64,000 nucleotides of DNA from a virus, in IMG/VR virus record IMGVR_UViG_3300032220_000699, positions 32,001 through 96,000 of that record; one strand, 5' to 3'. Every line of letters begins with the position of its first letter. Position 1 is the first letter of the stretch. Made by a program: the position numbers and the translations under genes. This document shows positions 4,851-50,908 of the stretch, one piece after another. Under the pieces are notes generated by a model, which was not told where the DNA came from, ran no database searches, and saw only the letters and a list, made by a program, of their open reading frames with translations.

Positions 4851-4857
4851 TTTGACT
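4851..4857 (+). promoter_or_regulatory. Late-type motif TTTGACT
   Basis: 27 nt before 4878. Confidence 0.6.
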
Positions 4858-4877
4858 ATGAATTAAGGAAAGATATA

Positions 4878-5984
4878 ATGCTATATCTGGATATCTTCAA
4901 CCGGGATTATATTAATCGAACTCCGATAACCGGTATCGTACATCCAACTGACCTAAGTTATTTACGTCGTTTGTACATTTTTAATAAAGATGCAATCGAG
5001 CGTTATTACCAAGAAAGGAATTTTGCTGTTAAGAACACCCATATTCTTAGCAGAATCCTAGAACACTTCCCTACCTATATTCAATACGATACATTCCGTT
5101 ATATTGACTACGCTTTAGATAAACTAAAGTACCTAGCCAAGCATTTTCAATTTACAAGCGATATTGAAAAAGGTACTGTACATCCTGGTAATTTCTTCGG
5201 GAATGAAAACGAAGAGATTATTATAGCAAGTTATGAACTATTTGATGTCAGTGAACTAACACGTAATTGGCAACAAGCTAAAACAGTTTATACGTTAACA
5301 CATAATCGGAACGACCATAAGTTACTACTTCCGTTAGGAACAGACGACGAAAGTAAATCAGGACTTTGCAGTCTAATGATTAATATACCTAAACTTGCAG
5401 TTCAGTATCGTGAGTTTAATAAGCAACAAGCCCGTCATGAAGCCGGACAAGTTGAAGATGGAAGTTTAGTTTTAAATAAGAATCACTTTGTTATTAAATA
5501 TGTGATTAGTAACATGATGGACGATGTTATTGATCATATGTTTCTGAATAAGATCATTGACAAGTTTTATGGTATTGAAACACAGCAGCCTAAGTTTAAG
5601 CATCGTTTCAAGATCTTTGAACCCAATCTTCAGATAGAACGTTATGTCGAACAAACACTTGATGTTATCACAAGTAAGAGTTTAGACTTTATAAATATCT
5701 TACATAATATCCATTTAATGTTTAAGATTGATGCAAGTGAATTACTTGCTCTTCCTAACATTGGTTATACAAATCAGATCAAGTGGGCACTTTTTATTAG
5801 TCGTCTTGATTACATGATATTCTTGTACGATGTAGCAAAGAATAAATCTGGCAATAAACATTATATTAATGACTGGAAACGTTTAGCTAAACGAATCGAA
5901 AGAGACGGTCGATTAAACGATATGTTCAGTTATGAAACTGAAAAAGATATTAAAGAGAAGTTGTATAGAATTTCACAAATGTAA
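4878..5984 (+). CDS. phiKZ-like late/virion protein, 368 aa
   Basis: AAGGA RBS, late-type TTTGACT motif, bidirectional terminator after the stop; function inferred from context only. Confidence 0.6.
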   Translation: MLYLDIFNRDYINRTPITGIVHPTDLSYLRRLYIFNKDAIERYYQERNFAVKNTHILSRILEHFPTYIQYDTFRYIDYALDKLKYLAKHFQFTSDIEKGTVHPGNFFGNENEEIIIASYELFDVSELTRNWQQAKTVYTLTHNRNDHKLLLPLGTDDESKSGLCSLMINIPKLAVQYREFNKQQARHEAGQVEDGSLVLNKNHFVIKYVISNMMDDVIDHMFLNKIIDKFYGIETQQPKFKHRFKIFEPNLQIERYVEQTLDVITSKSLDFINILHNIHLMFKIDASELLALPNIGYTNQIKWALFISRLDYMIFLYDVAKNKSGNKHYINDWKRLAKRIERDGRLNDMFSYETEKDIKEKLYRISQM

Positions 5985-6015
5985 CTATCTGGCTACCTGT
6001 TTGGTAGCCAGATAG
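5985..6015. terminator. Bidirectional terminator
   Basis: 13-bp inverted repeat between convergent genes. Confidence 0.8.
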
Positions 6016-6016
6016 T

Positions 6017-6199
6017 TTATCTTACAACAATCGGATCTTTTCTTTGAAGAGTAGTCGTCATCTTTTTACGATGGGTCTCTTCTTTATAATCTTTACTTTC
6101 CTGGATGAATTTCTTTCTAGGACAATCTTTACAGTTTTCTTTGCAATCTTCTAAAGAACAATTAAAACATACTCTATCTGCGGCTGGTAAGTTACACAT
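6017..6199 (-). CDS. Small Cys-rich protein, 60 aa
   Basis: CxxC..CxxxCxxC; GGGGA-like RBS; ends at terminator. Confidence 0.5.
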   Translation of the reverse strand: MCNLPAADRVCFNCSLEDCKENCKDCPRKKFIQESKDYKEETHRKKMTTTLQRKDPIVVR

Positions 6200-6239
6200 T
6201 GCGAAAAGTCCCCTATTGGAAAATTGGATCTATGTCCAA

Positions 6240-6608
6240 TTAATTTCCATTTAAAATAGTCGCTAGTGCTCTTGCTTGATTAACTTTAGAGGTCGCAAAC
6301 ATATCTGTTAAAGTAAAATCGTACTTTGGTAGCAGACTTCTTAATTCCTCAATAAGCTCTGGATTATGAATAGCCCATTCTTTCCAAAGCTTTAGATACT
6401 CTTCCCAAAGATCCACAGATTCATTAAGAGGTGGTTTACCTTTACCTTCACTAATAGAAGGATAGCCCTTCACACCAACTTGATAATGATATTCTATTGA
6501 TTTACCATCGGGCAGTCTTGCAAAGAATGCAGAAAACCTTTTGTCACCTTTGGATGATACTTCATATCCAGGACGATGGAATCTACCCCAGTTAACAATT
6601 ACGCTCAT
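6240..6608 (-). CDS. NADAR/YbiA-like protein (divergent)
   Basis: FSAFFARLPDGKSIEYHYQVGVKG resembles the NADAR SNF...DG...SVEHYYQA.K segment; C-terminal NQARALATIL. Confidence 0.5.
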   Translation of the reverse strand: MSVIVNWGRFHRPGYEVSSKGDKRFSAFFARLPDGKSIEYHYQVGVKGYPSISEGKGKPPLNESVDLWEEYLKLWKEWAIHNPELIEELRSLLPKYDFTLTDMFATSKVNQARALATILNGN

Positions 6609-7096: not shown

Positions 7097-7124
7097 ACTA
7101 ATTAAAGACAGAATTAAAAAATTG

Positions 7125-7131
7125 TTTGACT
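7125..7131 (+). promoter_or_regulatory. Late-type motif TTTGACT
   Basis: 25 nt before 7150. Confidence 0.6.
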
Positions 7132-7149: not shown

Positions 7150-7587
7150 ATGCCTACCTTCTTATTGAAAAAATACGACTCTGCTCCCACGGAAAACGTT
7201 AATCAAGAAAATCCGGAACAACCTTCTGAAAAGAAAGAAGAACAAGTTCCTGAGACAATGACTATCACTGTGTCTGGTTCTATCTCTCAGATTGTCGCTA
7301 CTGCTCTAAATAAAGTTCTTGAGAATACAGATGTTCAAGTAGAACAAACTGATTCTGAAGATCAGAACGCTGACGTGAAAGCTATTTCCACTGAAAATAT
7401 CAATGAAGAACCAGTTGATACACTCAGAAATATTCACGATAATGACTTTGTGTTTATTCACACACAAGGGTTTACAACTGCACAGGAAGAATGGTTCTTG
7501 ACAAATATGGCTAATAAAACCAACAAGGTTGTTTATACGTTGGAAAGCTTTATTAACCATGTTAAAGCACACTTTAAGCTGGGTTAA
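7150..7587 (+). CDS. Acidic late protein, about 145 aa
   Basis: ATG at 7150 chosen because TTTGACT lies 25 nt upstream; coupled to 7591. Confidence 0.6.
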   Translation: MPTFLLKKYDSAPTENVNQENPEQPSEKKEEQVPETMTITVSGSISQIVATALNKVLENTDVQVEQTDSEDQNADVKAISTENINEEPVDTLRNIHDNDFVFIHTQGFTTAQEEWFLTNMANKTNKVVYTLESFINHVKAHFKLG

Positions 7588-7590
7588 ACC

Positions 7591-8811
7591 ATGCACGTCA
7601 AAGAGGCTTTTGATAAGCTATTCGAAGGAGTTCGCTTCGACACTAGCTTTTACAAAAAGATCGTAGTTAACAATATTCAGTTTATTACTAGAAACACAGA
7701 GTTTAAGAATCTGTTTGGTTCTAAACTTATTGGAAATCATCTTGTTAAATACACTATGTATGACAAGGATATTTTCTATGATAATCTGTTCGGCATAACT
7801 GCTTCGGATGTTATTGAAACAATTGATAAGATTACTACTATTAACAAGAACTTCAAGATTGCTCGTGATGACGTCAACCTTGTTTGTTTTTATATAGCGC
7901 ATCGTTTCCTTTCGAATAAAGATCTTCCTAAAGAAAAAGCTGAAGAGTATGCTAGAGAGATTCTAGATTACTTTAATTATAGAACATTGGTTCTTATTTC
8001 AAGCAACTACTTTGTTTATCCTATTTCTGAAGAAAAAGCATTAACACTGATTGAACGCTTGAATAACAAATACATTATTAAGAAACTTAAGAACTGGAAT
8101 GAATATTGTCAGTATCGTAGTCAAGAGTATATCGATAGTAAGTTTCGTGATCTGTTAGTTAAGTTTAATCGTGATCCTGAACTTCCTAACGCTATTACTG
8201 ACTTATTTAATAGAACAAAAGACACAATCAAAAATATCTATAGTGAATTTATGGATATGGTTGAAAATGATGACATTATTAAGAGTCGAAAGAATATTAT
8301 CAATGACGTAGAAGGTGCTGAAGTTATTGTTGATAAACTAGATACTCCGGAAAAATACTTTATTAAGATTGAAAATATCTTAGTTGAGAAAAATACTTTT
8401 GTTAAAAAAGACTATATTAATGTTGTAACAGACATTATCAATAGTGTTTCTTATAAACAAGTGGAAGAAACACTAAGTTTAATTTGTGATTATAACTTCT
8501 CTACTCGTGAAAATAATCAAAAGGTTCTTGCTTTTGTTAACAGTGTTCTTGTTAATACAATTGATTACCTGAATAAGAATAATCTTTTCTTACATAATAA
8601 ATCTGACATTATTGATGTCATGAATACTATTGTCGGTAATGTTTTATATGCCCGTGGTACAGATATTGAAATCAATAAGGTAAAAGATCAAGGTGATAAG
8701 TTAATTAAAGAAATTTACAAATCACATAAAAAATACATTACGGATCGCAACATCAAGAATATTCGTAATGCTGTTTATATTTATATTGTATTACGAGCTG
8801 TAATCGATTAA
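7591..8811 (+). CDS. phiKZ-like virion structural protein, 406 aa
   Basis: Long ORF in a late operon; specific function not resolved. Confidence 0.55.
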   Translation: MHVKEAFDKLFEGVRFDTSFYKKIVVNNIQFITRNTEFKNLFGSKLIGNHLVKYTMYDKDIFYDNLFGITASDVIETIDKITTINKNFKIARDDVNLVCFYIAHRFLSNKDLPKEKAEEYAREILDYFNYRTLVLISSNYFVYPISEEKALTLIERLNNKYIIKKLKNWNEYCQYRSQEYIDSKFRDLLVKFNRDPELPNAITDLFNRTKDTIKNIYSEFMDMVENDDIIKSRKNIINDVEGAEVIVDKLDTPEKYFIKIENILVEKNTFVKKDYINVVTDIINSVSYKQVEETLSLICDYNFSTRENNQKVLAFVNSVLVNTIDYLNKNNLFLHNKSDIIDVMNTIVGNVLYARGTDIEINKVKDQGDKLIKEIYKSHKKYITDRNIKNIRNAVYIYIVLRAVID

Positions 8812-8849: not shown

Positions 8850-11800
8850 TTATGCTTCTACGCTCTTTCTGGATAGGTTTACACCACCCTTAGGAATAGA
8901 TTTATCAGGCGCTGGCGGAGGAGTCTGTTGAGACTTTCCGGCGGCTAACTGTTTAAATGTATCAGCGTCAAATTTACCATCGATAGATGTAAGAATCTTA
9001 GCGATGAGATTTAACGCATCTAATTGATCTGTCATTAGTTTTTCTGAGTTCTTCGGATTCATAACTGAACTTTGTTGAGGCGCTGGTGCTTGTGCTGGTG
9101 CACTTGCTGGTGACGCTGTATCAACTGTTTTATACAAAGAACCTGATGATGTTTCAGGTTTATAAACGGCTTTATTAAGTTGTGCAACTTGAGATGAGTT
9201 AGAATTATTTTGTTGTTTAGGTGCATCGTTAGACGCAACTGTAATAGAAGGTTGTTTAGAAGTATCAGTAGAAGCAACTGTTGGTTTTGTTTCTGTAGCA
9301 GTAGTGTTACCTGCTGCATTTCCACCTCCACCTGCGGCTGCAATTTTCCCACTAACTTTCTGGACATATCCTTGAACACTAGCATCACCGATACCAGCTT
9401 TATTAGCAGCATAAGCATCACCACTAACAGCATTCTTCATCGGAGTATTTGGATCTTTCTTCAAGAAGTCGATAATCTTTCTTGCACCCGATGCACCGTA
9501 ATGATGTGCTAAGTAAATAGCTGTTGCTTCATCAATACCAGCAGACTGGTAATCTTTAAGACCTGCTAAGTTTTCCTTAGCGTATTCCATCGCCATTAAA
9601 GCATTGTAGTAATTATTATCCGGCTTAGCATCCGGAGGTAGACCATATTTAGGTCCATATTTTTTAACAAGTGCTTTCCATGTACCACCAACAATCTGGA
9701 AAAGACCTGTCGCAGAACTATTCTTGTTCTTAATGCTACCACCTTTACCGCTCGATTCCATTTGAGCGTAAGCTTTCATTGTTGCTTCATTCATTCCGGT
9801 CATCTTAGCTGCTTGTGTTATAGCGGCATCAGGACCAAGTTCAGCATACTTACCAACATCAGTAGCTGGGTTAGCCGGAGCAACATTTTCAGATTTCTCT
9901 AAAGGTTTATTAGAAGAATTAATTGTAGGTTTAGCTTCTGCGTCAGGATTACCACTACCTGTTGCTATGCTTCCAGCACTTCCGCCAGTTGTTGCAGCTT
10001 TAGCGTCAGTATTTGATTGTGTAGCTGTAGGAGAAGCAGCTCCGGTTATCTTTGGCTTATCACCGGGTGTTTCGCCAGGTTTACCACCCATACCAGGTTT
10101 AGGTTCTAAGTTAGGAGCTGGGCTATTCTTAATTGCCTTAGCAGGATCAATAGTTTCTCCACCAGCTTTGTTGTAAACAGAAAGTTGATATTGTACATCA
10201 CGTTTTTTAAGCGTAGAGTTATCTAAAGCACCATAACCGTCACCACCTTTACCAGGAGAAGACTGAATAGCACTAAATCTATAGTTTTGATCTTTCTTAG
10301 CTCTATTTGGGTCAAGAGAAACACCGATAGGTTCGATGTGCCACTTTTCACCACCGATAGGTCTAGTGAAACCATACTTACGCATTAAACCAAGTTTGTC
10401 AAGTTCATCAGCTTCTTTCGAGTTAATGTCAAGAGCCAAACCAAATTCATGTGTAGAATTACCAGGCTTAGCAGCTTTGCCAGGCATCTTAGCATAAAGT
10501 GCTGCTTGATCTTCGTATGATCTAAATGCTTCATTAACAGGAATTGTTTTACCAGTTAATGCGTTATATTCCTTAGCCATACCGGTAAAGAGTTCACGAA
10601 CATTAGGATCAAGATTATATATCTTTTCTTTTGCGAGCTTTGTACTAATACCTTCAAGAGAAGTAGTACCTGGATAAATTTCACCAGAAGCTTTAGTTAA
10701 CTTAGCAGCAGCCTTTGTTTCTGTCTTTTCACCAACACCAGTTTCAGTTTTTCCAGGAGGACTATCAGCTTCACCAGGAGACTGTTCTAAAGGTGGTTGT
10801 TTTGCAGGAGGAGGCGCTGGTTTAGTTTCTTCAGCTTTCTTCTGTTCTGGCTGTTGCTTTTGCGCAACTGCGGATTGCTTTGCTTTATTTTCAGCTTCGA
10901 TCTTCTTAGCCGTGTTAGGATCTTTTTGATTAGCTTGATCTTTACATTGATTAGTGATGTTTGTTAACATAGAGTCAACTTCATCTTTAGTTGAATAAAC
11001 CTTAGGATCATCAAAAGTCGGAACTTCTTGAATATCGTAAATAACCGTAGGAACACTGATACGTGTTACAAAGTTATAAACATCCAGAGGTTTCATCTTG
11101 TCAATTTCGTCAAGATAAATACTGTTATTAACACTATACAATGCTTGCATGAAAGCCTTATAAGCAGGCATAAATCTCTTAACAAACCATGTGTTAAGAA
11201 TCTTATATTTATCCTTTTCTTCGCGTTTTACCTTGAAGATATCTAGGATCTTATCAATATCATCGTTGTTAAGTTTATCTACTGTGACCTTATAGTCTTT
11301 AAACTTAACATAATCTTTCATCATCATTTCAAGATCGAAGACCTTGGAATAATGTTCTTTCTTCACATCGTTGAAACCATACATCAATAATCTTAAACGT
11401 GTTAACTTACCGCCAAGATCATCAGCCACATTGTTTCTTGTGAGATATTTATAAAGTTTATAACCGGCGTAAGCTGCTGTTGCGGCAGCTGCAATCCAGC
11501 CAACAGGACCTGTTGCTAGTGTTAAAGCGGCACGGCCTGCTAATTTTAAAGCTCCGCCAGCCATAGGTAACATAGCTCGGCCAGCGGTCTTAGCACCCTC
11601 CATAGCTACAGTTCCTATGGCTTTTAATCCACCACCAACTAACTTAGATGTTAATTTGGCTATAGTTGAACCAAGGGCTGGAACAAGACTCATCATGGTT
11701 TTGCCTAGGCCTTTAACAACAAAACCACCTAAATAACCAATTGACTTACCAAAGCCCTTTAAAAGAAAACCGCCGAGACCGCCTAGTGCTTTACCAATCA

Positions 11801-12398: not shown

Positions 12399-12427
12399 GG
12401 TAATCCTTTTCAGTAATAAGTGTACTG

Positions 12428-12434
12428 GGTCAAA
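12428..12434 (-). promoter_or_regulatory. Late-type motif TTTGACC inside an 11-bp hairpin
   Basis: 36 nt before 12398. Confidence 0.55.
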
Positions 12435-12457
12435 AAATGACCCAGTACACTTTATGT

Positions 12458-15400: not shown

Positions 15401-15586
15401 GTCTAAGAAACCTTGACCAGCTTCTTTTGCCATTTCTTTGGCAATTTCACTAGTTGAAGGTTTTCTAGAAGACATATCAACATCTTCTAATCCTCCAAAA
15501 TCCATACCACCATCTGCTTCGAGATCGTCTAAATCTCCGAAATCTAAATCATTATCTAGATCTTTATTGCCTGACTTCTTCTTCAT
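12458..15586 (-). CDS. Large helical tail protein (N-terminal half of phiKZ gp181-like; tape-measure-like)
   Basis: Acidic D/F-rich N-terminus, coiled coils, Gly-rich segment; divergent from vRNAP beta' as gp181 is from gp180; start moved to 15586 (AAGGA RBS, late motif 26 nt upstream). Confidence 0.65.
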   Translation of the reverse strand: MKKKSGNKDLDNDLDFGDLDDLEADGGMDFGGLEDVDMSSRKPSTSEIAKEMAKEAGQGFLDSTARKAAEKALPDSYKDNYYTAVEYADFAKETFQASKGKINKSLYSLGKEVKKILPFQSKMLDNFLQKYESDFEAFKSQTEEQIREGNIQSNLSSIFDKQLEITKAIESKRSAEDQADRKQNLAISKVNLDVLTSIDNNLSNQTAFTLQISKEYYRKSLELQYKSYFVQADMLKDMRDYYKGFSIQFEEIKKNTALPDFVKLQTSERVSELMRTQFIQNTYKQLFSNSEYMQNVKKRMTNIINEKISSITDNVDNVTDALSGINQAGEMSGGGGRVLGGIMSGMGGGILGEKAGNWLGDKLGSKTKDNKYVKAGGNYLNMMANSPRTFFSMLRGKTQSAKENYQDEGTPLRFLASKLLGGADELLSATDPNMQRFEVKKKNILDHNKPAIFDNKVHRSITEVIPMYLAKILSENTNLRLMYKTVNLGKLKNFSDKEEQVYNYVDRKLSTKAEFKAAVDQAVFKDTGKESKKITSAADNINSLALSSVDKKTDKEAYKILSNKGNQKSFQEFMSMASTKIDAKDFNYDNVVTNIDKDPGLKAIVEKNPKLKQYVETLQSLNLSKKNSNLNERVKDSRRIYPTLGVIELFREASRLVGSKTLNNVKGDAANLISKALVAYMHGRNKPITLSSICDATCFAFIPEKDKSVCFPYLEVFIPQCRQIQAEDDTYKNSQITLFISMVNESLFNSFEFNPDTFQILHDYDSDLQDSGQLGITNLVEGKLGKDNKDEALVDAGELKALSKRGSRAVKKALEARSKLDIIDITEKSAFGKHLSKFTDIGSKFSKDINEAEGFDGMKSAVKSMLKSVSEQSQESAKEAYKNVTKSLNGLQKQIDDLIKKDGPGVKENAKKKMLEMADNYIRKIDSLIAAEEATLREEEAKLSELAASVRENVSENSLDSVMREGTKTMVQAKKKEIALLKKFKGTLHESRNGIANIDTNVQTMTEFSQQAIQPFRTFIAKAKATLKEFEDEVKAAEAATI

Positions 15587-15605: not shown

Positions 15606-15612
15606 GGTCAAA
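15606..15612 (-). promoter_or_regulatory. Late-type motif TTTGACC
   Basis: 26 nt before 15586. Confidence 0.6.
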
Positions 15613-15671
15613 CGATAAAACAAAAAAAGAAAAAAAAAAACACCAGTGGCAAGCTGGTGTCCTTTAAACTG

Positions 15672-16217: not shown

Positions 16218-16232
16218 AAAATGTGGTCATTT

Positions 16233-16239
16233 TTTGACT
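16233..16239 (+). promoter_or_regulatory. Late-type motif TTTGACT
   Basis: 25 nt before vRNAP beta' start. Confidence 0.6.
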
Positions 16240-18570: not shown

Positions 18571-18654
18571 AATCTTTGAATACCAAAACATTTTATAACA
18601 GTTTAAAATTAATCAATAAATAATTAAATAATTAAAAAATTAATGAAAGTATGA

Positions 18655-18661
18655 TTTGACT
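18655..18661 (+). promoter_or_regulatory. Late-type motif TTTGACT
   Basis: 27 nt before 18682. Confidence 0.6.
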
Positions 18662-27892: not shown

Positions 27893-27965
27893 TTTAACCT
27901 CAGTTTAATATATAAATTCAAAAAATTCACTCTACCAGGTTATTAAGCCTGGTAGAGTGACTATT

Positions 27966-29351: not shown

Positions 29352-29358
29352 AGTCAAA
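29352..29358 (-). promoter_or_regulatory. Late-type motif TTTGACT
   Basis: 26 nt before 29332. Confidence 0.6.
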
Positions 29359-29388
29359 AAATGCTTTGGTTCAACTAAGGAGATTAAA

Positions 29389-31137: not shown

Positions 31138-31232
31138 TTTAGAAACCTATTTTGGTGTATTTATCAAACAATTTTAGCAAAAATGAAAAATGCCTAAGAG
31201 ACTAGGGATTTCTCCCTAGTCTCTTTTAGTAT

Positions 31233-34281: not shown

Positions 34282-34288
34282 AGTCAGA
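34282..34288 (-). promoter_or_regulatory. Late-type motif variant TCTGACT
   Basis: 25 nt before 34263. Confidence 0.55.
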
Positions 34289-34352
34289 AAATTTGTTTAA
34301 AAAATAAAAAGAAACATCCAGAGAGTCTCCTCTCTGGATGCTCTTATATTAA

Positions 34353-37154: not shown

Positions 37155-37239
37155 GTTAACTCCTTAAGTTAGCCTGTAAATATGGTTCACAGAATTCTTT
37201 TAATCAATTAGCTATATTAAAAAAATAAACCGAGAATTT

Positions 37240-37246
37240 TGTGACT
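37240..37246 (+). promoter_or_regulatory. Late-type motif variant TGTGACT
   Basis: 25 nt before the portal start. Confidence 0.55.
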
Positions 37247-41250: not shown

Positions 41251-42993
41251 TTAATCAGTGTCAATTTGTTCCATCAATTCAAAATCGTCAGACGAACTAT
41301 CATCGTCTTCGAGTTCGACCCCTTCTGCTAACAGTAGATCCGGAACAAACTCGTCACCATCCTGAATGTCTTCCGACACAGTGATGTTAGCGAGCAGTCT
41401 ATCCGTTTCTTCAATAATGTTATTAAAGACAGGATGCGGGAGCACAGATCCCGTAGCCAAATCAATATTAACGTAAGGGTTAAGACGAACCACAGGAACA
41501 GGGTTCTTCTTACTCAGTCCGAGAATACTTCCAACTGTCGCCATACTAGCCACAATCTTCTTTCTCTCGGATGTATTTACGTCAGCATTATTAATGTTAA
41601 CGAAATCAGATTCTTGTTGAACAACCATAGCCGTATTTTTCGGATACAGATGATCACCAGAATACTCGATACTCGTTACATATTGTTTGTCTTTCTTAAG
41701 CGAAAATATCGCTCGAGTGACGAAGTATTTCTTAAAGATTTTATCAACAATCTTAGAGTCAAGCTTTTCGTTATTGATACGAAGCTCTTCTTTATTAATA
41801 TCAAGAACTATACGAGTGATACGAGAAGTCAGATGCGACAAAATAAACGATTCGATCTCATATGTCTTGTTATGATATAGACTACGAACTTCTGCATTCA
41901 TAATCCAGTTATTAAACTGTTTAAAGATAACACCAAGCAACCCGATCAGGTTGTTAGAGTCAACACCAATATCACGCAGTTTACCAATCGTAATCGTATC
42001 AAAGCTCGAGTTCAGATCGTTAAAGTGTGCATTGATTTTTTCACTGAGATAAGCAAGACCGTGATTACCAGAGTGGATGATCTCACCAAGCAAACGTTTC
42101 CAGATAAGCGTGTTATCCAGTTCGTCAATGCTAATAGCTTCAGGGAAGTTATCGATGATGTAAAACAGATTACCAACAACGTAAAGAACATCTTCGTTGT
42201 ATTTGTCTTCATCAACAACAAACTTAATACTCGTCTTCTGATAGAGTTGTTTGTTCCTGATATAACCATGAGGTGCGTTACCAGTGCTTGATAACACAAC
42301 CTTATCAGTCTTACTATAATCATACATCGGCTTAGGAACAAACCCAAGCAACATATGCATAGTCTTTGTGAAACCATAGTTAGCAAGCAGGTAATGCATA
42401 ACCGTAGTGTTAGCCTTGGTCGTATCTTCCAGCTTCTTAACTTGATTCTTATAAAGTTCAGTGTTCACAATAGAAACACGATTAAACACACCACTGGTTT
42501 GACCAGGTTGCTGAACTTGAATACTGAAGTAAGTACGAGTGAAACTATACTTAGCAGTCAGGATGTTAATGAAGATGATCTTATCACCGATACTGATAAC
42601 CTTATCCGATAGAACAGGCATCACAAGGAAGTTATTACCACTCAGATGAATGATGTTACCCTTGTTCATATACGGGATATAGAAATGATGACGACGAATA
42701 TTTTCTTCATCACCATACTTAAACATAAACTCAACAAGATAAATATCGTTTTCAGCGATATCGTGAATAACCTTGCTAGTCTTATTAAACAAAAACTTAT
42801 TTTCTTCCTTAGGCAACAGTTCCCTGTAGCCTAAGTATTGTAAATGGGTGTTCGTCTTACTGTTACATGAATACTTAATAAAGTTATCGATATATGCAAT
42901 AGCATTGTTCAATCGGTGGTAGCAGAGACCTTCTACTGCCTGTTGATTGAATTTAGGAGTTTTATCCGCGATAAATTGGGCTAGTGTTTTCAA
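41251..42993 (-). CDS. Non-virion RNA polymerase beta subunit, N-terminal part (phiKZ gp123-like)
   Basis: TPKFN, FYIPYM..GNIIHLSG...MPVLSDKVIS, LNPYV; position between MCP and portal as in phiKZ; early promoter upstream. Confidence 0.8.
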   Translation of the reverse strand: MKTLAQFIADKTPKFNQQAVEGLCYHRLNNAIAYIDNFIKYSCNSKTNTHLQYLGYRELLPKEENKFLFNKTSKVIHDIAENDIYLVEFMFKYGDEENIRRHHFYIPYMNKGNIIHLSGNNFLVMPVLSDKVISIGDKIIFINILTAKYSFTRTYFSIQVQQPGQTSGVFNRVSIVNTELYKNQVKKLEDTTKANTTVMHYLLANYGFTKTMHMLLGFVPKPMYDYSKTDKVVLSSTGNAPHGYIRNKQLYQKTSIKFVVDEDKYNEDVLYVVGNLFYIIDNFPEAISIDELDNTLIWKRLLGEIIHSGNHGLAYLSEKINAHFNDLNSSFDTITIGKLRDIGVDSNNLIGLLGVIFKQFNNWIMNAEVRSLYHNKTYEIESFILSHLTSRITRIVLDINKEELRINNEKLDSKIVDKIFKKYFVTRAIFSLKKDKQYVTSIEYSGDHLYPKNTAMVVQQESDFVNINNADVNTSERKKIVASMATVGSILGLSKKNPVPVVRLNPYVNIDLATGSVLPHPVFNNIIEETDRLLANITVSEDIQDGDEFVPDLLLAEGVELEDDDSSSDDFELMEQIDTD

Positions 42994-43117: not shown

Positions 43118-44578
43118 CTAGGCTTTCCCAAGCTGTTTGACAATAACAAAACCAGTAGCAACAACACCAGCAACGGCAGCAACAGTTTTAAGTGTTTCGA
43201 GAGACGAGTCTCGTTCATGCCGAAGATCATCTCGAGCATACTTTCTTTCATCGAAATGATGTTTCATAGTGTTACTACTCCAATCATAGGCTGCTTTAGA
43301 GTTAAGAGATTCTTGCTCTAATTTATGTTTAAAAGCCGCATGGTCTTCTTCCATTTTTCTAAGTTTAATCTTAGATTCATGTTCGAACTGTGCTCTTTCA
43401 AGCTTTAACTCATTCTCCCTTTCTCTGAAACTAGCTTCTCTATCTTTAAGATCACGCTCACGTTTTTCTCTCAAATTGCATGCATCTCGAGCTTCATCTT
43501 GATGCTCAAAAAGAAAGTCAACAGTGTTAATTTCATTTACAGGAATATGGTATGCTTCAACAACATCAAAGTTCTTATCAAATTTACCAATCCAGAGACC
43601 CCTTTCCCTAGACTTTGATTTGATCTTAGGTACAAGATGAACTTTGTTATGTAATGAATAATAACGAGGTTTCATTTCGTTATCAGGATCTACCATGAAT
43701 ATACAAGGAGACCCAGGGACTACATTTTCTTTTAACTCAGCAAAGTCAGAACTACGGCTACACGCTGGGTTAATAATAGGCACGAAGTTTTTACTCTTCG
43801 TAAAATATAAATCTAAATCACGGAAGAAAACAGAAACTTCTTCTTCAGTTGTATCATCTATAAACATTCTGGGCGTAAGAACACCCATAGTGATAGCTTT
43901 AATTTCTGGAACATCTGTATCTTCATTTTTCTCAATAAAACTATCCCAAGCCTGAGATACGAAATAACGAAGCTTTAAACTCTGATGAAATTTATCACCA
44001 GGCATTTTATCCATTTCAGATGGATTAAATTTATGATGATCCAGATAGTCTTTTAAATAATTACCGCTGATTCCAGTTGCTCTACTATGGTTAGTAGGCG
44101 TTGTTATACGATGAATTGCAAAAACAATAATTTTACCTTCAAAGGCTTTTGTTAGTCTATTCTGTTCTACTGGATGGAAAACAGTTGACCCATTTAGATT
44201 GTCATAAACAGTGATCGGTTCAGTCGTGAAATTAGCAACTATAAAAGCAGGACCTAGGGAGAGACCACCCTTTTCAATGATAAATTTATTTTCTTTACGA
44301 ACATTGATGTGTAGATTTTTTCTACTATTATTAGGATCATAGTCCTCGATATCTCTGCTAACATTTGTATGGATAACAGGAGAATCAGAATTTAAACCCT
44401 TTTTAACTTCATAGTAACAAAACTTAATACCAGCAGTTGGATTGATATCAAATTGTTGTATAACAGGAAGATAGTTTGTTTCGTACGTCTTATCGTTAAC
44501 ACCCAAGAATGCTTTATTGAGACTAGTTAAATAGGCAGCAACATTCACCATTCTTAGACTTTTTGTAACTACTTTCAC
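43118..44578 (-). CDS. Hypothetical protein, 486 aa, with C-terminal coiled coil and hydrophobic anchor
   Basis: ERERDLKDREASFRERE... coil; VAAVAGVVATGFVIV terminus. Confidence 0.75.
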   Translation of the reverse strand: MKVVTKSLRMVNVAAYLTSLNKAFLGVNDKTYETNYLPVIQQFDINPTAGIKFCYYEVKKGLNSDSPVIHTNVSRDIEDYDPNNSRKNLHINVRKENKFIIEKGGLSLGPAFIVANFTTEPITVYDNLNGSTVFHPVEQNRLTKAFEGKIIVFAIHRITTPTNHSRATGISGNYLKDYLDHHKFNPSEMDKMPGDKFHQSLKLRYFVSQAWDSFIEKNEDTDVPEIKAITMGVLTPRMFIDDTTEEEVSVFFRDLDLYFTKSKNFVPIINPACSRSSDFAELKENVVPGSPCIFMVDPDNEMKPRYYSLHNKVHLVPKIKSKSRERGLWIGKFDKNFDVVEAYHIPVNEINTVDFLFEHQDEARDACNLREKRERDLKDREASFRERENELKLERAQFEHESKIKLRKMEEDHAAFKHKLEQESLNSKAAYDWSSNTMKHHFDERKYARDDLRHERDSSLETLKTVAAVAGVVATGFVIVKQLGKA

Positions 44579-44695: not shown

Positions 44696-46849
44696 TTAAA
44701 CAGTATGCATATTGACAGTAACCTTGCCAGTAACTTCCGGCAGACCGGTCACTTCGAGCATGGTCATCATCGGCAGATTGACAGTGTGCAGGAAGCGCGG
44801 AGAAACGATCAGTTCCTTAGAAACTTGACCATCGCGGCTAACCGGCATAACAACGGTCAGTTCCGGCGACCACAGCATGTTGCCGAAGTTCAGCGGATTG
44901 ATACCGGTGTTACGAGCAGAGTCAAACACACCGAAGGACACGAAGATCTTGCCCTTGACACGGCTATCCAGAGTCGAAACGATACGGACGTCGAAGGTTT
45001 CACCCAGCGTACGCAGATCGCCATCGGCTTGCAGATAGTTGTAGATCACCGGATCGGTACCAACGATAATGGTCGGCTTGAAGCCAGTGTTGCCAGTCAG
45101 AACAGCGGCAGCAGCCTTGTATTCCGAAGAGCGATACATTTCATTAGCGTAGTAACGCAGCTTTTCAACCAGAGCAGCACGGATGTCCTTGATCTTCTCA
45201 TGGGACTTCAGGCTGTCAACGGTGCCTTCCAGATTGATAGCTTCGTGGAAGTAGATCGGCTTGACATACAGATGACCGAAAGCATTGATTTCTGGCAGGT
45301 CGCCGTTAGCGTCAGCAACCGGAGCGTACGAAGCCAGGGAGACTTGAGCACGCAGCAGAGCTGAAACAGCTTCGTTCGAAACACGGATACCAGTGGTGGT
45401 GATCAGGGTTTGCAGAGCGGAGTTGTCATCACCAGAAGCATTAACAACCGGCATGATGATGGACAGCGGTGAACGGTACGGAACCGGAATCACACGGTAT
45501 TCGACTTGAGAGTCGAGCAGCTGACCACGTTGACGGATGTTGCTGTTAGCACGGAAGGCAGTCAGCGTATAGCCGATGACTTCAGCAGCAGCGATCTTAC
45601 CAGCCAGGGTGTTGAAGGTAGCACCAGAGACCAGCATGTCGGAAGCATTACGCAGAGCAACCAGACCCAGCGTACCACCAGAAACCAGGCAGTCACCCTT
45701 GTCCAGAGACACGTTACCAGAGATAGACAGCTGGATACGAGCCTTGTGAGTAGCCAGTTCAGGCAGAGAAGCCGGAGCAGCACCAGTGACGTCCAGAGTC
45801 GAAGCGTCCAGAACCAGAGCGTCCGAATCCATTGCCAACAGCATACGACGATAGTTGCCTTGCGGAGCATACGTGAACGTAGAGCCCGGCTTTTCGTCAA
45901 CTTGAACGCGGATGACATCGGTGTTGGTACCGTCGGTAACCTTCAGGTAAACTGATTCCAGCTTGATGAAGGTGTCCAGAGCGTCTGAAGGACCCATGAT
46001 ACCGCTGTTCAGCAGTTCGTTGGTCTGAGAAATACCGATCAGATCGATCTTGGTGTCAACCTTAACAGCACCAGTTTGGATACTGATACCACCGCCGACA
46101 GCAACAGTCCAGGCCGGAACATCAGCAACCGGAACGAACTTGTCAGAGTTGTCGTCAGAACCGCCACCGTTACGGAGAACCGGAATAGCACGGGTCATTT
46201 CGTTCTTCAGGATTTCAGCATCAGCATAGGCGCGGATAACACTCTTACGAGCATAGTTAGCCAGCGATCCGGTGACAGAACGCTTGAAGTCATTGAAGAC
46301 GTAGAACAGCTTAGCGGACAGGGTAACACCGACTTCATTCGGGTTAACAACGATCGTCGGGAAGAAGGTTTCGCCGAATTCGTCTTGACGTGAGGCCAGC
46401 AGATTGTAGATGATCGAGAACAGCTGTGCATTACGGTTGTCACGCTCGTCATAAGCTTCGGTAGCGACTTGCGGACGTTCCATGAAGCTATCAGCAACAC
46501 CAGAAACCATAACGATAGCGTCAGAACCAACGCTCTTCGGCTTGGTGCTCAGGAATTGCTTCGGATTGCTGCCCAGCATACCGGACAGAGTTGCAGCTTC
46601 CAGTTGGAAACCTTCAACAGCCAGACCGAATTGTTGAGCGATCGTCTTCATCGAAGATTCGATGTTGTTATAGACGTTCGTCAGGGCGCTTTCAGCAGCA
46701 GAGTCAAGGCTTTCAGCAGCCAGATATTGACCGATCTTTTCGTCATTGAAACTGCGGGAAGCAGTGATCTGACCAACTTGTTCAGTCAGTTGACCAATCG
46801 GATCAACAACCAGCGACTTACGACCAGCGAGAAGTTTGTGAATAGACAT
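44696..46849 (-). CDS. Major capsid protein (phiKZ gp120-like)
   Basis: 717 aa; ATEAYDERDN...YNLLASRQDEFGETFFPTIVV; AxE prohead-protease-type sites at residues 46, 53, 79, 131; strongest codon bias; strong terminator. Confidence 0.92.
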   Translation of the reverse strand: MSIHKLLAGRKSLVVDPIGQLTEQVGQITASRSFNDEKIGQYLAAESLDSAAESALTNVYNNIESSMKTIAQQFGLAVEGFQLEAATLSGMLGSNPKQFLSTKPKSVGSDAIVMVSGVADSFMERPQVATEAYDERDNRNAQLFSIIYNLLASRQDEFGETFFPTIVVNPNEVGVTLSAKLFYVFNDFKRSVTGSLANYARKSVIRAYADAEILKNEMTRAIPVLRNGGGSDDNSDKFVPVADVPAWTVAVGGGISIQTGAVKVDTKIDLIGISQTNELLNSGIMGPSDALDTFIKLESVYLKVTDGTNTDVIRVQVDEKPGSTFTYAPQGNYRRMLLAMDSDALVLDASTLDVTGAAPASLPELATHKARIQLSISGNVSLDKGDCLVSGGTLGLVALRNASDMLVSGATFNTLAGKIAAAEVIGYTLTAFRANSNIRQRGQLLDSQVEYRVIPVPYRSPLSIIMPVVNASGDDNSALQTLITTTGIRVSNEAVSALLRAQVSLASYAPVADANGDLPEINAFGHLYVKPIYFHEAINLEGTVDSLKSHEKIKDIRAALVEKLRYYANEMYRSSEYKAAAAVLTGNTGFKPTIIVGTDPVIYNYLQADGDLRTLGETFDVRIVSTLDSRVKGKIFVSFGVFDSARNTGINPLNFGNMLWSPELTVVMPVSRDGQVSKELIVSPRFLHTVNLPMMTMLEVTGLPEVTGKVTVNMHTV

Positions 46850-47444: not shown

Positions 47445-47864
47445 TCAAAGAATATCGAACGGAATGCCTAGTAATCTAAGCTGATCACGGACAGCACTAT
47501 ATTGTGCATTAGAAATGTTGTTCAGTCTAATGGTGTAATTCAAACCAGATGACTCTTCAACACTACCACTGATAATCCAAACATCAGCAATCACAACATC
47601 CTTATCATTGTGTTTGAACAAGTAATAAGTATATTCAATGTGATTAGAATTTGTACCAGGAGGAAGATACGGATAGATTTGTTTATGCAGAAGTTCAATA
47701 TTAGAAAACTTCAACGCAGTATTGTAATCCAAAATAGAAACAAGTTTGGCATTCTTATAAACAGTACCCAGAACAGAGTTAGGATAAAGAGAGAAGCCGT
47801 AGTGCTTGTTAAGTGACAAAGTAGGCATATTTGTATCCCGATTGTAATTAATCAAAAAATTCAC
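47445..47864 (-). CDS. phiKZ-like small protein upstream of MCP
   Basis: FSLYPNSVLG...IYPYLPPGT...YTYYLF; recalled from capsid-gene neighbourhoods. Confidence 0.6.
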   Translation of the reverse strand: MNFLINYNRDTNMPTLSLNKHYGFSLYPNSVLGTVYKNAKLVSILDYNTALKFSNIELLHKQIYPYLPPGTNSNHIEYTYYLFKHNDKDVVIADVWIISGSVEESSGLNYTIRLNNISNAQYSAVRDQLRLLGIPFDIL

Positions 47865-48553: not shown

Positions 48554-48576
48554 TGCTACACCTAGTTAGGTGACAG

Positions 48577-49023
48577 TTATTTTTGTGCTAACAGTTTAAT
48601 TTCAAAAATCTTCAGAGGGAGAACAGGATCAGCGTCTGACAGATAATTGATTAAAAGAAGAATATTCTTTACAGGACTCTTGCCGAACATCTGGGTGTAG
48701 ATATTATCCTCATCACTGTGTTCGTCCAAATAAACTTCAAAATTGGCAAGGTTAACCGCGATCGGATGAACACGATCACCTTCCATCTTATCAGAGTAAT
48801 AAAAGTAATCAGGTTTCAGTGAGTTAGCATCAATCTTAGCAATAAAATCATTAAGATCGGTGACCCAGTTACCAGACACTTTATCTTTAATACGGTACTG
48901 TTCAATACCATCACCATGAACTTTACGTTCAATCAGACGAGTAAGAAAAGCTTGAATAGAGAAAATGCGATCATCGCCAAGATTTGCGACGATAACATCT
49001 TTTACTTGTGAGTTGGTCATCAT
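48577..49023 (-). CDS. Hypothetical protein, 148 aa
   Basis: AAGGAG RBS. Confidence 0.7.
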   Translation of the reverse strand: MMTNSQVKDVIVANLGDDRIFSIQAFLTRLIERKVHGDGIEQYRIKDKVSGNWVTDLNDFIAKIDANSLKPDYFYYSDKMEGDRVHPIAVNLANFEVYLDEHSDEDNIYTQMFGKSPVKNILLLINYLSDADPVLPLKIFEIKLLAQK

Positions 49024-49036
49024 TTAAAAAAACTCC

Positions 49037-49471
49037 TTACGAAATTTCAACAGGGTTAATCGGTGTCATGAACTCGTGAAAATCCTTAACAGAAATTTTC
49101 ATGCTGAGATCTATATTGTAAATAACTTCACGCATAGTTAAGCGAATGTTTACAATATCATTCACTTCATTAGTTTCAGTTTCAACACCAACAATATCAA
49201 AAGTCATGCCTTCAAGTAAAGCAGTGTTAAACTTATGACATACTCCTGGTATTTCTTTCACATTGAAATAGAACTGAGCTAATTTATTCAGTTCACCATT
49301 ATTTATGATTTCACCTTTTTTAAGACGATCAATCAATGGACCAATTTCTGGATCAAGATCTCGTTTAGCGTTTGATCCCTGAGTAGCATCTGTTGTCGTA
49401 GAACTAAACTTTTTTAATACATCTTTCTTACCAATAAGTCTTTGTAGAAATTTTTTCATTTTTAATCTCAC
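49037..49471 (-). CDS. Hypothetical protein, about 140 aa
   Basis: Coupled to the upstream 479-aa ORF. Confidence 0.65.
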   Translation of the reverse strand: MRLKMKKFLQRLIGKKDVLKKFSSTTTDATQGSNAKRDLDPEIGPLIDRLKKGEIINNGELNKLAQFYFNVKEIPGVCHKFNTALLEGMTFDIVGVETETNEVNDIVNIRLTMREVIYNIDLSMKISVKDFHEFMTPINPVEIS

Positions 49472-50883
49472 TTACTATTAACAAATACCTGTAAGGATGT
49501 GTGAGCAGTTAAACTAACAGTTTGACTGCGTTGAGACATAACAGGACTCGGATTTGGATTACTATAACTGATGATAGCCATATGAATAACGCCGAAGACT
49601 TCAGTAATACCACCACCTTTATCTTCGTACAAAATTTTACATTTAGCAGCTGGGTATATAAAATCATGGTCTAAGTTGCTAACCTCAACTTTAATATAGT
49701 TCCCATTCTTACGTAGAAGGTCTGCAGTCAATTTAAACTGATTACCTGACACACTCTTATTAGGTGCAAAATTAAGACCGTCAGAACGCGATTTAAAGAT
49801 AACTTCAGAGCTAAGTTCATTACGTTTAAACTTAGGACCAGATTCAGTCATTTCAACAGGTTTCTTCATAAAGCTATTGGCGTTAGACATTCTAAAACCA
49901 CTACCTGAAGACATCACAGAAGTTTCTTTGTTATCACTGATCTTGGATATGTTATGCGGCAATATTCTAAGAACTTTATCTTTATACTTATAGGTGTTAT
50001 CACCACCAGAGTGACTTGACGAAATAGGAGCAAAGAACATTGTCTTAAACTCTGATTTTTGATATTTGTCTCCATTGTAGAGACTATAAATAAACATATT
50101 CTTTTTATAAGTATAAGGGTCAGTTCCAAACTTCTGAACATAACATCCTATACCACCGTTATAAACACCAATATTCTTTTCTTGAATTAACTCAGGAAGT
50201 TCAATAATTCGTGTGAATGAAGGAACAGTGACTGCCTTTAAATTATCGGAGTTATCTGGTTCTTCAATATCAATACCATCTAGAGCTGGTTTATTTTCAA
50301 TAAGTATCTTATTGGATTGTTCTGAGATTAGACTCTTAAAGAAAGTCGCAATCCCCATGTCTTTATTACCATTGATACCTTTATCAAAGTTACCTTGAGT
50401 CGTTTTTATCCGCAATGTTTCAACCGAACGATCTAACAACTGAAAAGTAACAATCAACGGCATCTGATTATTTAAATCATCTTTTGTTTGTTTAATAGTG
50501 TTAGGAACAGAACTATTCTTTTCTAATAAGTAAACACCCTTATAACGTTCTTTAACAGTTAAAGGTGAACCATTGGTTTGACGAAGTTGTTTCGTCGTAA
50601 TAATAGTGATTTCGATATTATCGAGTTTATCGTAAACATCATATAAGAAAGTACCAGGAGGTATGCTCAGTTTAACTTCAATATAGTCAGAAATATTTTC
50701 AATATAATCTCTAACAATATAGATATCAACAAGAGCAATACCATCAGTATAATCTAAGTCTTTTTCATCTGTATGCAGTTTTGTTTCGAAAGCAAAAATT
50801 GCATCATAATCTTGAGCTGGATTCTCGATGATGTCCTGAATATCTGGATAGAGCATCGAGGATTCTACGGACATTGCAGACAT
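49468..50883 (-). CDS. phiKZ-like virion structural protein, about 470 aa
   Basis: Late motif TTTGACC 25 nt before ATG 50883. Confidence 0.55.
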   Translation of the reverse strand: MSAMSVESSMLYPDIQDIIENPAQDYDAIFAFETKLHTDEKDLDYTDGIALVDIYIVRDYIENISDYIEVKLSIPPGTFLYDVYDKLDNIEITIITTKQLRQTNGSPLTVKERYKGVYLLEKNSSVPNTIKQTKDDLNNQMPLIVTFQLLDRSVETLRIKTTQGNFDKGINGNKDMGIATFFKSLISEQSNKILIENKPALDGIDIEEPDNSDNLKAVTVPSFTRIIELPELIQEKNIGVYNGGIGCYVQKFGTDPYTYKKNMFIYSLYNGDKYQKSEFKTMFFAPISSSHSGGDNTYKYKDKVLRILPHNISKISDNKETSVMSSGSGFRMSNANSFMKKPVEMTESGPKFKRNELSSEVIFKSRSDGLNFAPNKSVSGNQFKLTADLLRKNGNYIKVEVSNLDHDFIYPAAKCKILYEDKGGGITEVFGVIHMAIISYSNPNPSPVMSQRSQTVSLTAHTSLQVFVNSK

Positions 50884-50901
50884 AATAATCCCAGAATGAT
50901 A

Positions 50902-50908
50902 GGTCAAA
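50902..50908 (-). promoter_or_regulatory. Late-type motif TTTGACC
   Basis: 25 nt before 50883. Confidence 0.55.

What the first reader, a model, noticed from the sequence alone, without database searches (positions are those of the whole stretch)
4851..50908. Late-gene motif TTTGAC(T/C) at a fixed 25-27 nt before structural-gene starts
Seen: TTTGACY, or a one-mismatch variant, precedes starts at 4878, 7150, 15586, 16258, 18682, 29332, 34263, 37265 and 50883 at 25-27 nt, and 12398 at 36 nt. It occurs on both strands. The targets are portal, baseplate/tail genes and vRNAP beta'. It is absent from genes carrying the CATATATA promoter. Established: phiKZ late promoters recognised by nvRNAP are defined by TATG. 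Inference: a new late-promoter specificity of this phage's nvRNAP, implying a divergent gp68-like specificity subunit.
Basis: partly seen in the sequence, partly recalled or inferred. Interest (0 to 1): 0.7.

Follow-up and report, generated by a model that had tools for sequence, protein, structure and literature searches.

The report
Late-gene promoter motif, giant phage
A short DNA word (core AT-N4-TGA, usually aATTTTTTGAY) sits about 25 bases before roughly forty virion and late genes of this phiKZ-like giant phage and its relatives, and is almost certainly the promoter read by the phage's own second RNA polymerase; it is an unusually well-defined relative of the four-letter phiKZ late promoter.

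Summary
TTTGAC is not over-represented overall. Its position is highly non-random: 10 genes carry it 25-27 nt before the ATG against 0.19 expected. The true element is A(-7)T(-6)ttT(-3)tT(-1)G(+1)A(+2)Y, with core AT-N4-TGA. On the 189-kb contig, 38 genes carry ATNNTNTGA 24-44 nt upstream (expected 0.8). Fifteen such sites lie in the window. The targets are virion, tail and head genes, all four virion-RNAP subunit genes and the terminase. No gene has both this element and the CATATATA early promoter. The element is kept in Bacillus phage AgentSmith (about 50% aa identity) and in metagenomic relatives while the flanks diverge. Inside genes the word is depleted 4-14-fold on both strands, only at the N4 spacing, and not in phiKZ. 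That indicates a DNA-level signal, not an mRNA-level one. Best reading: the post-early (nvRNAP) promoter, an extended relative of phiKZ T-A-T-G(+1). No start site has been mapped. In phiKZ, gp123 reads TATG, and the gp68 homologue lies off this incomplete contig. An earlier first-reader note from an overlapping window of this genome records the same motif. Verdict: a new variant of a known kind.

The parts
4847..4855 (+). Late-type promoter core ATTTTTTGA; T(-3) is 27 nt before ATG 4878. The gene is a homologue of phiKZ gp52, a head protein.
7121..7129 (+). Core ATTGTTTGA, 25 nt before ATG 7150 (operon 7150-8811). Conserved in L014 (ATTGTTTGA) and L015 (ATACTTTGA).
12430..12438 (-). Core ATTTTTTGA, 36 nt before ATG 12398 (tail lysin / transglycosylase gene 8850-12398). 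It lies in the loop of a perfect 12-bp hairpin, so the site is ambiguous. The same layout occurs in L014.
15608..15616 (-). Core ATCGTTTGA, 26 nt before ATG 15586 (tail-fibre-type gene 12458-15586). A terminator hairpin with T-run lies 22 nt upstream.
16229..16237 (+). Core ATTTTTTGA, 25 nt before ATG 16258 (virion RNAP beta'-N subunit, phiKZ gp180 homologue, 16258-17892). Kept in L014, L015 and L017; L012 and AgentSmith lose only T(-3).
18651..18659 (+). Core ATGATTTGA, 27 nt before ATG 18682 (virion protein, phiKZ gp182 homologue).
27918..27926 (-). Core ATTTTTTGA (+3 = A), 30 nt before ATG 27892. The T-run doubles as the U-tract of the upstream terminator hairpin.
29354..29362 (-). Core ATTTTTTGA, 26 nt before ATG 29332 (operon 28964-29332 and 27966-28955).
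31164..31172 (-). Core ATTGTTTGA, 31 nt before ATG 31137 (RuvC-like resolvase).
34284..34292 (-). Core ATTTTCTGA, 25 nt before ATG 34263 (phiKZ gp128 homologue, head protein).
37187..37195 (-). Core ATTCTGTGA, 37 nt before ATG 37154 (tail-fibre-type gene 34353-37154). It is divergent from the next site.
37236..37244 (+). Core ATTTTGTGA, 25 nt before ATG 37265 (phiKZ gp129 homologue, portal-type virion protein).
47445..47453 (-). Core ATTCTTTGA, 22 nt before ATG 47427. It overlaps the end of the upstream CDS. The major capsid gene 44696-46849 follows in the same operon.
47852..47860 (-). Core ATTTTTTGA, 28 nt before ATG 47828 (phiKZ gp49 homologue). A terminator lies 23 nt upstream. This site heads the operon that ends with the major capsid gene.
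50904..50912 (-). Core ATGATTTGA, 25 nt before ATG 50883 (gene 49468-50883, PHROG 3245). A terminator lies 26 nt upstream.
41251..42993 (-). Gene for the nvRNAP beta-N subunit, homologue of phiKZ gp123, which reads TATG in phiKZ. A CATATATA early-type promoter lies about 95 nt upstream. This is the candidate reader of the T-n-T-G half.

Best explanation
The element is the post-early (middle/late) promoter class of a phiKZ-like, nucleus-forming giant phage, and it is read by the phage's non-virion RNA polymerase (nvRNAP). The consensus is a-A-T-T-t-T-t-T-G-A-Y-T-a-A, with obligatory core AT-N4-TGA. About 40 strong copies, and about 10 weaker copies lacking T(-3), lie on this contig. Each is co-oriented with the gene it precedes, often just after the terminator of the preceding gene, and is followed by a short leader that carries the Shine-Dalgarno. 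Shown here: position, orientation, gene class, exclusivity with the early promoter, conservation across relatives, and selection against the word on both strands inside genes. Inferred: transcription starts at the G of TGA or within about 8 nt downstream, giving a leader of 14-24 nt. This follows from analogy with phiKZ T(-3)ATG(+1) and AR9 T(-1)R(+1). Also inferred: the gp123-like beta-lobe pocket reads the T-n-T-G half on the non-template strand. The upstream A-T would then lie near the upstream edge of the bubble, where the sigma-like fifth subunit (the gp68/gp226 family) acts.
For: Positional enrichment: TTTGAC at -27..-25 in 10 genes against 0.185 expected. ATNNTNTGA precedes 38 genes against 0.81 expected, P about 1e-50. 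AgentSmith has 21 against 0.36, P about 2e-30. L014 has 6 of 17 genes and L015 has 4 of 20. The top ~22 PWM hits in the whole genome nearly all lie 25-39 nt before a same-strand ATG. Every core position is preferred when left out in turn. Depletion inside CDS against codon shuffles: this genome, sense 20 against 90 and antisense 9 against 83; AgentSmith, 5 against 71 and 5 against 74. The depletion belongs to the composite word, not to sub-words. It occurs only at spacing N4 and is absent from phiKZ (ratio 1.08). Targets are tail fibres, virion and head proteins, the portal-type and capsid operons, the terminase and a RuvC-like gene. All four vRNAP subunit genes or operons carry the element. 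The nvRNAP gp123-like gene has CATATATA instead. There are 42 late-type genes, 30 early-type genes and none with both. 25 of 39 sites have a hairpin plus T-run within 70 nt upstream. Footprinting shows diverged flanks with a retained core. phiKZ TATG(+1) lies 26-47 nt before late ATGs, a comparable geometry. Of the gp123 pocket residues, F151 (stacks G+1), K158, K190, H331, S144 and Q466 are conserved.
Against: No transcript 5' ends exist for this phage or any relative, so neither promoter function nor the start site is shown directly. The contig lacks three of the five nvRNAP subunit genes; it is incomplete relative to AgentSmith, so the enzyme is inferred from relatives. Several pocket residues around T-3/A-2/T-1 differ (H185N, Y399S, Y406L), and the alignment is at 22% identity. 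There are always at least 6-7 nt between TGA and the SD. That would also fit a start site several bases downstream of the motif. In phiKZ the vRNAP genes are 'middle' genes, so 'late' may be too narrow a label.
Confidence: 0.8

Rival explanations
1. The element is a binding site for a phage-encoded late regulator (activator, repressor or DNA-bound sigma-like factor) placed next to an otherwise sequence-poor promoter, and is not the core promoter itself.
For: The data show a DNA-level, oriented, conserved site near gene starts. They do not show which protein reads it. phiKZ late promoters need undefined extra determinants besides TATG.
Against: The word is asymmetric, has strict internal spacing and contains the T-n-T-G start-site word of phiKZ. 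It lies at the very beginning of the transcription unit, directly after terminators. The strong depletion on both strands in genes fits spurious initiation better than spurious factor binding.
Confidence: 0.08
2. The element is a host RNA polymerase promoter element: the -35 or -10 of sigma-A, or the site of an alternative or phage-encoded sigma.
For: TTGAC resembles the -35 hexamer TTGACA, and TG-n-YTAAT loosely resembles an extended -10.
Against: If TTGAC were a -35, the start would fall on or after the ATG. If the motif were a -10, the start would fall about 8 nt before the ATG and exclude the conserved SD at -13..-8. No second hexamer is conserved at 16-18 bp. The obligatory bases A(-7)T(-6) and A(+2) are not sigma-70 features. 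The phage encodes chimallin, PhuZ and both RNAP sets, the hallmarks of host-RNAP-independent phiKZ-like phages (PMC4666361, PMC7598289).
Confidence: 0.03
3. The element is an mRNA-level signal in the leader, such as an RNase processing site, a translational operator or a ribosome standby site.
For: In this phage, half the sites have a tight 25-27 nt spacing to the ATG.
Against: The reverse complement is depleted inside genes at least as strongly as the sense word: 9 against 83, and 5 against 74. An RNA signal does not predict that. Spacing to the ATG ranges over 22-39 nt here and 24-39 nt in AgentSmith. Sites directly follow terminators, so many would not be transcribed from upstream.
Confidence: 0.04
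4. The element is a by-product of intrinsic terminators: the T-run is simply the U-tract of the preceding gene's terminator.
For: 25 of 39 sites have a hairpin plus T-run upstream. In about 5 sites the motif's T-run is the U-tract. The site at 12430 lies inside a hairpin.
Against: Most sites lie 16-30 nt beyond a separate T-run. Sites occur in divergent intergenic regions with no same-strand upstream gene (4847, 7121, 16229, 18651, 37236). Variants without a T-run (ATGATTTGA, ATCGTTTGA, ATGGTGTGA) are conserved. The depleted word AT-N4-TGA needs no T-run.
Confidence: 0.02

Closest known systems
phiKZ late promoter 5'-T(-3)ATG(+1)-3', read by nvRNAP (Ceyssens 2014; Yakunina 2015, PMC4666361; structure PMC12809450)
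   Same: It precedes virion and late genes of a phage with two multisubunit RNAPs. It shares T(-3), T(-1) and G(+1), and some sites here are literal TATGA. It lies a few tens of nt before the ATG (26-47 nt in phiKZ, 22-36 nt here). A gp123 homologue with a partly conserved pocket is present.
   Different: Position -2 is not A (T 26, G 8, A 4, C 1). A(-7)T(-6) and A(+2) are obligatory and the region between is T-rich. This gives about 14 bits against about 8, so the sites can be predicted from sequence. The word is purged from genes, which is not seen in phiKZ. The start site is unmapped.
AR9 late promoter 5'-A(-11)ACA-N6-T-A/G(+1)-3', template-strand dU read by gp226 (PMC5312081, PMC9209446)
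   Same: It is a Gram-positive-host phiKZ-related phage with only two evident promoter classes. The late element is bipartite: an upstream word, a fixed spacer, then T-purine at the start.
   Different: There is no AACA (positions -11..-8 are unconserved). The spacer is N4, not N6. There is no evidence for uracil DNA.
AT-rich vRNAP early promoters of phiKZ-like phages (about 10 nt centred at -10, TSS 6 nt downstream; PMC7598289)
   Same: This phage's own early class fits that description: TttGAAa-N12-aCATATATA-nTAnnTG. Like the late class, it ends in a conserved T-G.
   Different: The late element is a different word, precedes different genes, and never shares an intergenic region with CATATATA.

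Membership tests
phiKZ-type nvRNAP late promoter (TATG) | Lies upstream of late / virion-structural genes, and not upstream of early genes | tested here: met
   Targets are virion, tail and head genes, vRNAP genes and the terminase. No gene has both the strict word and CATATATA, across 42 late-type and 30 early-type genes.
phiKZ-type nvRNAP late promoter (TATG) | Consensus T(-3) A(-2) T(-1) G(+1) | tested here: inconclusive
   T, T and G are conserved (39 of 39 by construction; confirmed by leave-one-out: T 39 vs 16 other, T 39 vs 3, G 39 vs 11). Position -2 is T/G/A/C = 26/8/4/1, so not A.
phiKZ-type nvRNAP late promoter (TATG) | No conserved sequence upstream of -3 | tested here: not met
   A(-7) and T(-6) are obligatory. 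Depletion requires the AT-N4-TG combination.
phiKZ-type nvRNAP late promoter (TATG) | Transcription starts at the G; the site is recognised by nvRNAP (gp123 pocket) | not testable with these tools
   No transcript data exist. The pocket residues are only partly conserved at 22% identity.
AR9-type late promoter (AACA-N6-TR, template-strand dU) | AACA at -11..-8 with an N6 spacer | tested here: not met
   Positions -12..-8 carry under 0.3 bit. The spacing is N4.
Bacterial sigma-70-type promoter | -35 and -10 hexamers 16-18 bp apart, with the start about 7 nt after the -10 and upstream of the SD | tested here: not met
   There is a single element. Either assignment puts the start at or beyond the SD or the ATG.
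phiKZ-like (chimallivirus-type) phage with two multisubunit RNAPs | Homologues of the vRNAP and nvRNAP subunits, chimallin, and the phiKZ-type major capsid protein | tested here: met
   gp178, gp180, gp149 and gp80 (vRNAP), gp55 and gp123 (nvRNAP), gp54 chimallin and gp120 MCP are found. gp71-73, gp74 and gp68 are absent from this incomplete contig but present in AgentSmith.

The most novel reading that the evidence does not exclude
AT-N4-TGA is a two-part nvRNAP promoter in which two different subunits each read one half. The sigma-like gp68-family subunit reads A(-7)T(-6) at the upstream bubble edge, and the gp123-like beta-lobe pocket reads T-n-T-G-A at the start. That would make this Gram-positive-host clade the first phiKZ-like group whose late promoters can be read straight from sequence. 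The weaker form without T(-3) would serve as a 'middle' class for replication, nucleus and nvRNAP genes. Promoter words could then be traced against subunit sequence across hundreds of uncultured relatives, using the annotation-free both-strand depletion signature.
Probability: 0.35. Interest if true: 0.7.

Novelty: new variant of a known kind. Interest (0 to 1): 0.55.

Why it matters
For phiKZ-like giant phages it remains unresolved how a four-letter word (TATG) can specify late promoters. A 2020 review states that their middle and late promoters cannot be predicted bioinformatically (PMC7598289). In this clade, the nvRNAP-type promoter carries about 14 bits, is conserved across about 50% protein divergence, and leaves a strong both-strand avoidance footprint in coding DNA. 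Three things follow. Late transcription units can be annotated from sequence alone. The system is tractable, because AgentSmith is cultured on Bacillus, so it can be asked which subunit reads which half. The depletion signature gives a general, annotation-free way to map promoter specificity across uncultured giant phages.

Tried and rejected
The overall count of TTTGACY is not enriched, so only position matters. A megablast of the window against phage records found nothing. The sigma-70 -35 and -10 readings were rejected on geometry. The Bacteroidetes -7 box (TAnnTTTG, from my own knowledge) was considered because one homologue is labelled Flavobacterium. It was rejected because the A is one base out of register and the strong SD usage argues against such a host. 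The terminator by-product and mRNA-signal readings were rejected. I looked for the gp68 homologue on the contig. There is no BLAST or phmmer hit. The metagenome scan gave only near-identical relatives. Whole-locus depletion ratios on 21-kb loci are noisy. Only L047 stood out, and L055, L043 and L031 showed no promoter-like layout. AR9 was not fetched, so the depletion method has no positive control on a phage with mapped late promoters.


Full report
**What the window is.** The window is bases 32001-96000 of a single 189,134-bp contig. The contig encodes homologues of the phiKZ virion RNAP subunits gp178, gp180, gp149 and gp80. It also encodes the nvRNAP subunits gp55 and gp123, the nuclear-shell protein gp54 and the major capsid protein gp120. 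It is therefore a phiKZ-like, nucleus-forming phage. The closest annotated relative is Bacillus phage vB_BspM_AgentSmith, at 58% aa identity in the gp180-like subunit, with 91 reciprocal best hits. The contig is incomplete. It has no counterpart of AgentSmith ~131-183 kb, which holds the tail sheath, DnaB, and the homologues of gp68, gp71-73 and gp74.

**Checking the observation.** All ten sites are present as described. TTTGACY is not over-represented in the window: 25 copies against 28.5 expected. Its position is highly non-random. With my own gene calls (197 genes), 10 of 130 genomic TTTGAC copies start 25-27 nt before a start codon, against 0.185 in shuffles. K-mer enrichment over all upstream regions gave two classes. 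CATATATA occurs in 23 upstream regions out of 40 genomic copies. ATTTTTTG occurs in 16 out of 23.

**The real motif.** A PWM scan of both strands placed the top ~22 hits almost exclusively 25-39 nt before a same-strand ATG. It also revealed an invariant A four bases upstream of TTTGA. I number the G of TGA as +1. This is a hypothesis, explained below. On that numbering the matrix is a(-8) A(-7) T(-6) T(-5) t(-4) T(-3) t(-2) T(-1) G(+1) A(+2) Y(+3) T(+4) a(+5) A(+6). Relaxing each core position in turn shows each is a true preference: A 39 vs 3 at -7, T 39 vs 3 at -1, G 39 vs 11 at +1, A 39 vs 8 at +2. The word ATNNTNTGA occurs 75 times on both strands of the contig. Thirty-eight genes carry it 24-44 nt upstream, against 0.81 expected (P about 1e-50). 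The window has 26 copies, and 15 lie 22-37 nt before same-strand starts. The distance to the ATG is a sharp lower bound with a tail: 20 of 39 sites at 25-27 nt, range 22-39.

**Conservation.**
- AgentSmith independently shows both motif classes enriched upstream. It has 21 of its 34 ATNNTNTGA copies in promoter position (P about 2e-30).
- Orthologous genes carry the element with different variable bases, for example ATTTTGTGAA, ATTCTTTGAT and ATGGTTTGAC.
- The element recurs in metagenomic relatives L014 (89% aa), L015 (68%), L017 (53%) and L021 (40%).
- In aligned orthologous upstream regions the flanks have diverged while AT-N4-TGA stays in place. L012 and AgentSmith lose only T(-3) before the gp180-like gene.

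**DNA-level or RNA-level signal.** Against codon-shuffled versions of the same genes, the word is depleted inside coding regions on both strands.
- This genome: sense 20 vs 90, antisense 9 vs 83.
- AgentSmith: 5 vs 71 and 5 vs 74, with z between -7 and -9.
- Sub-words (TGA, TTGA, T.TGA) are not depleted. Any word that joins the upstream AT to the downstream TG is.
- Among spacings N1-N8, only AT-N4-TGA is depleted (0.58/0.41 here, 0.26/0.21 in AgentSmith). N3 and N5 are near 1.
- phiKZ shows no such depletion (ratio 1.08).

Selection against the reverse complement is what a promoter predicts and what an mRNA signal does not.

**Context.**
- The late-type genes with an assigned function are tail fibres, virion and head proteins, and homologues of phiKZ gp52, gp128, gp129, gp182 and gp49.
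- They also include the operon ending in the major capsid gene, the terminase and a RuvC-like resolvase.
- All four vRNAP subunit genes or operons carry the element. The nvRNAP gp123-like gene has CATATATA instead. This matches the phiKZ logic, in which vRNAP makes early transcripts that include nvRNAP genes, and nvRNAP makes the rest.
- Forty-two genes have the strict word in their own intergenic region, 30 have the early word, and none has both.
- Twenty-five of 39 sites have a hairpin plus T-run within 70 nt upstream, about 20 with 10-12-bp stems. In about five, the U-tract is the motif's own T-run. The module is terminator, then motif, then SD, then ATG.
- Sites also occur in divergent intergenic regions, where a same-strand terminator would have no function.

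**A weaker form.** AT-N4-TGA without T(-3) is also enriched upstream: 16 vs 2.75 here and 10 vs 1.28 in AgentSmith. Apart from a few copies embedded in early promoters, it precedes the gp55-like nvRNAP gene in both phages, plus PhuZ, a UvsX-like gene and a DNA polymerase. This may be a weaker or 'middle' subclass. I did not test that further.

**Relation to what is known.**
- phiKZ late promoters are T(-3)ATG(+1), with G as the start. All four bases are needed, and other determinants are undefined (PMC4666361).
- AR9 late promoters are A(-11)ACA-N6-T-A/G(+1) (PMC5312081).
- A 2020 review states that middle and late promoters of these phages cannot be predicted bioinformatically (PMC7598289).
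- A 2026 structure shows that phiKZ TATG on the non-template strand is held in a pocket of the beta-like subunit gp123, while gp68 distorts and opens DNA at about -11 to -8. In AR9, the gp68 counterpart gp226 reads the template strand at -11..-8 (PMC12809450).

The motif here shares T(-3), T(-1) and G(+1) with phiKZ, and the terminase site is a literal TATGA. It shares the bipartite layout with AR9. It adds an obligatory A(-7)T(-6) and A(+2). The window's gp123 homologue aligns to the solved chain 7OGP_E (E=1e-23). It keeps F151 (stacks G+1), K158, K190, H331, S144 and Q466. It differs at H185, Y399, Y406, S330, S334, N398 and N186. This fits a retained G(+1) contact and an altered reading of -3/-2, but the alignment is at only 22% identity.

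**The start site.** It is not mapped. Three placements are possible.
- The G of TGA, by analogy with phiKZ. The early class also ends in a conserved T-G, at the distance where AR9 and phiKZ early starts were mapped.
- The A at +5/+6 after T(+4), in an AR9-like register.
- About 7 nt downstream of the motif.

All three give 14-24-nt leaders that contain the SD. phiKZ TATG(+1) lies 26-47 nt before late ATGs, compared with 22-36 nt here.

**Verdict.** The late-promoter reading is well supported indirectly. The gp68 inference is not supported. No paper in the searchable library describes this motif. Two earlier first-reader notes from overlapping windows of this genome record the same late motif and the bipartite early promoter. 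I rate this a new variant of a known kind, of moderate interest.

Noticed in passing
window, 14 copies on the minus strand: 951, 4780, 16194, 24376, 43089, 44609, 48219, 51508, 56353, 57305, 57968, 60611, 62208, 62913: The early promoter class is an extended bipartite element, TttGAAa - N12 - aCATATATA - nTAnnTG (40 genomic copies). If the conserved G is the start, its TATATA lies at -12..-7, as in a bacterial -10. The TTGAAA lies only 14 bp upstream, too close for a sigma-70 -35. Both promoter classes end in T-G.
   Followed up: partly
whole contig G000:C1 (189,134 bp): The contig is incomplete relative to AgentSmith. It has no counterpart of AgentSmith ~131-183 kb, which holds the tail sheath, DnaB, and the nvRNAP beta-C, beta'-N and gp68-like genes. 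The gene order is otherwise largely syntenic, with some rearrangement.
   Followed up: partly
window 12418-12448, minus strand: There is a perfect 12-bp hairpin (GTGTACTGGGTC / GACCCAGTACAC) whose 7-nt loop ATTTTTT, together with the first stem bases, forms a complete late motif. The same design occurs in L014. L015 has a hairpin at the same place with loop ATGTTTT followed by GG. It could be a terminator and a promoter sharing one structure, or a structure-gated promoter.
   Followed up: no
window 27918-27926; genome 125468, 129907, 131154, 155992: In about five modules the U-tract of the preceding gene's terminator is the T-run (-5..-1) of the late motif, so termination and re-initiation signals overlap within about 10 nt.
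   Followed up: no
window 2211-2219 (before the PhuZ-like gene 1268-2185); genome 32639 (gp55-like), 158717, 186334: AT-N4-TGA without T(-3) precedes replication, nucleus and nvRNAP genes at 24-36 nt. It is enriched in both phages (16 vs 2.75; 10 vs 1.28). This may be a weaker or middle promoter subclass.
   Followed up: partly
window 24235-24243 (+) and 54254-54262 (-): Two intergenic strict-motif copies have no gene within 45 nt: one is 246 nt before start 24485 and the other 170 nt before my call for gene 51578-54088. They may mark mis-called starts, small unannotated genes or non-coding transcripts.
   Followed up: no
loci L027, L029, L032, L035, L038, L042, L051, L060, L075, L083, L084 and others, about 25 nt upstream of the gp180-like gene: More distant phiKZ-like contigs show a different recurring word, (T)CATA(G/T)(TTTTAG or AAATT), about 25 nt before this gene. 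These are candidate late-promoter words of other clades.
   Followed up: no
L047 (IMGVR_UViG_3300026382_000006, 28% GC, 36% identity): AT-N4-TGA is extremely depleted: 6 copies against about 58 at same-phase spacings. Two of the six have the promoter layout before long ORFs. The specificity may extend to another AT-rich lineage.
   Followed up: partly
window 39920-41230 and 43118-44578, minus strand: Two genes of 436 and 486 aa flank the gp123-like nvRNAP gene. They have no PHROG or PDB sequence match. The second has its own CATATATA promoter. By synteny they occupy the positions of phiKZ gp124 and gp122.
   Followed up: partly
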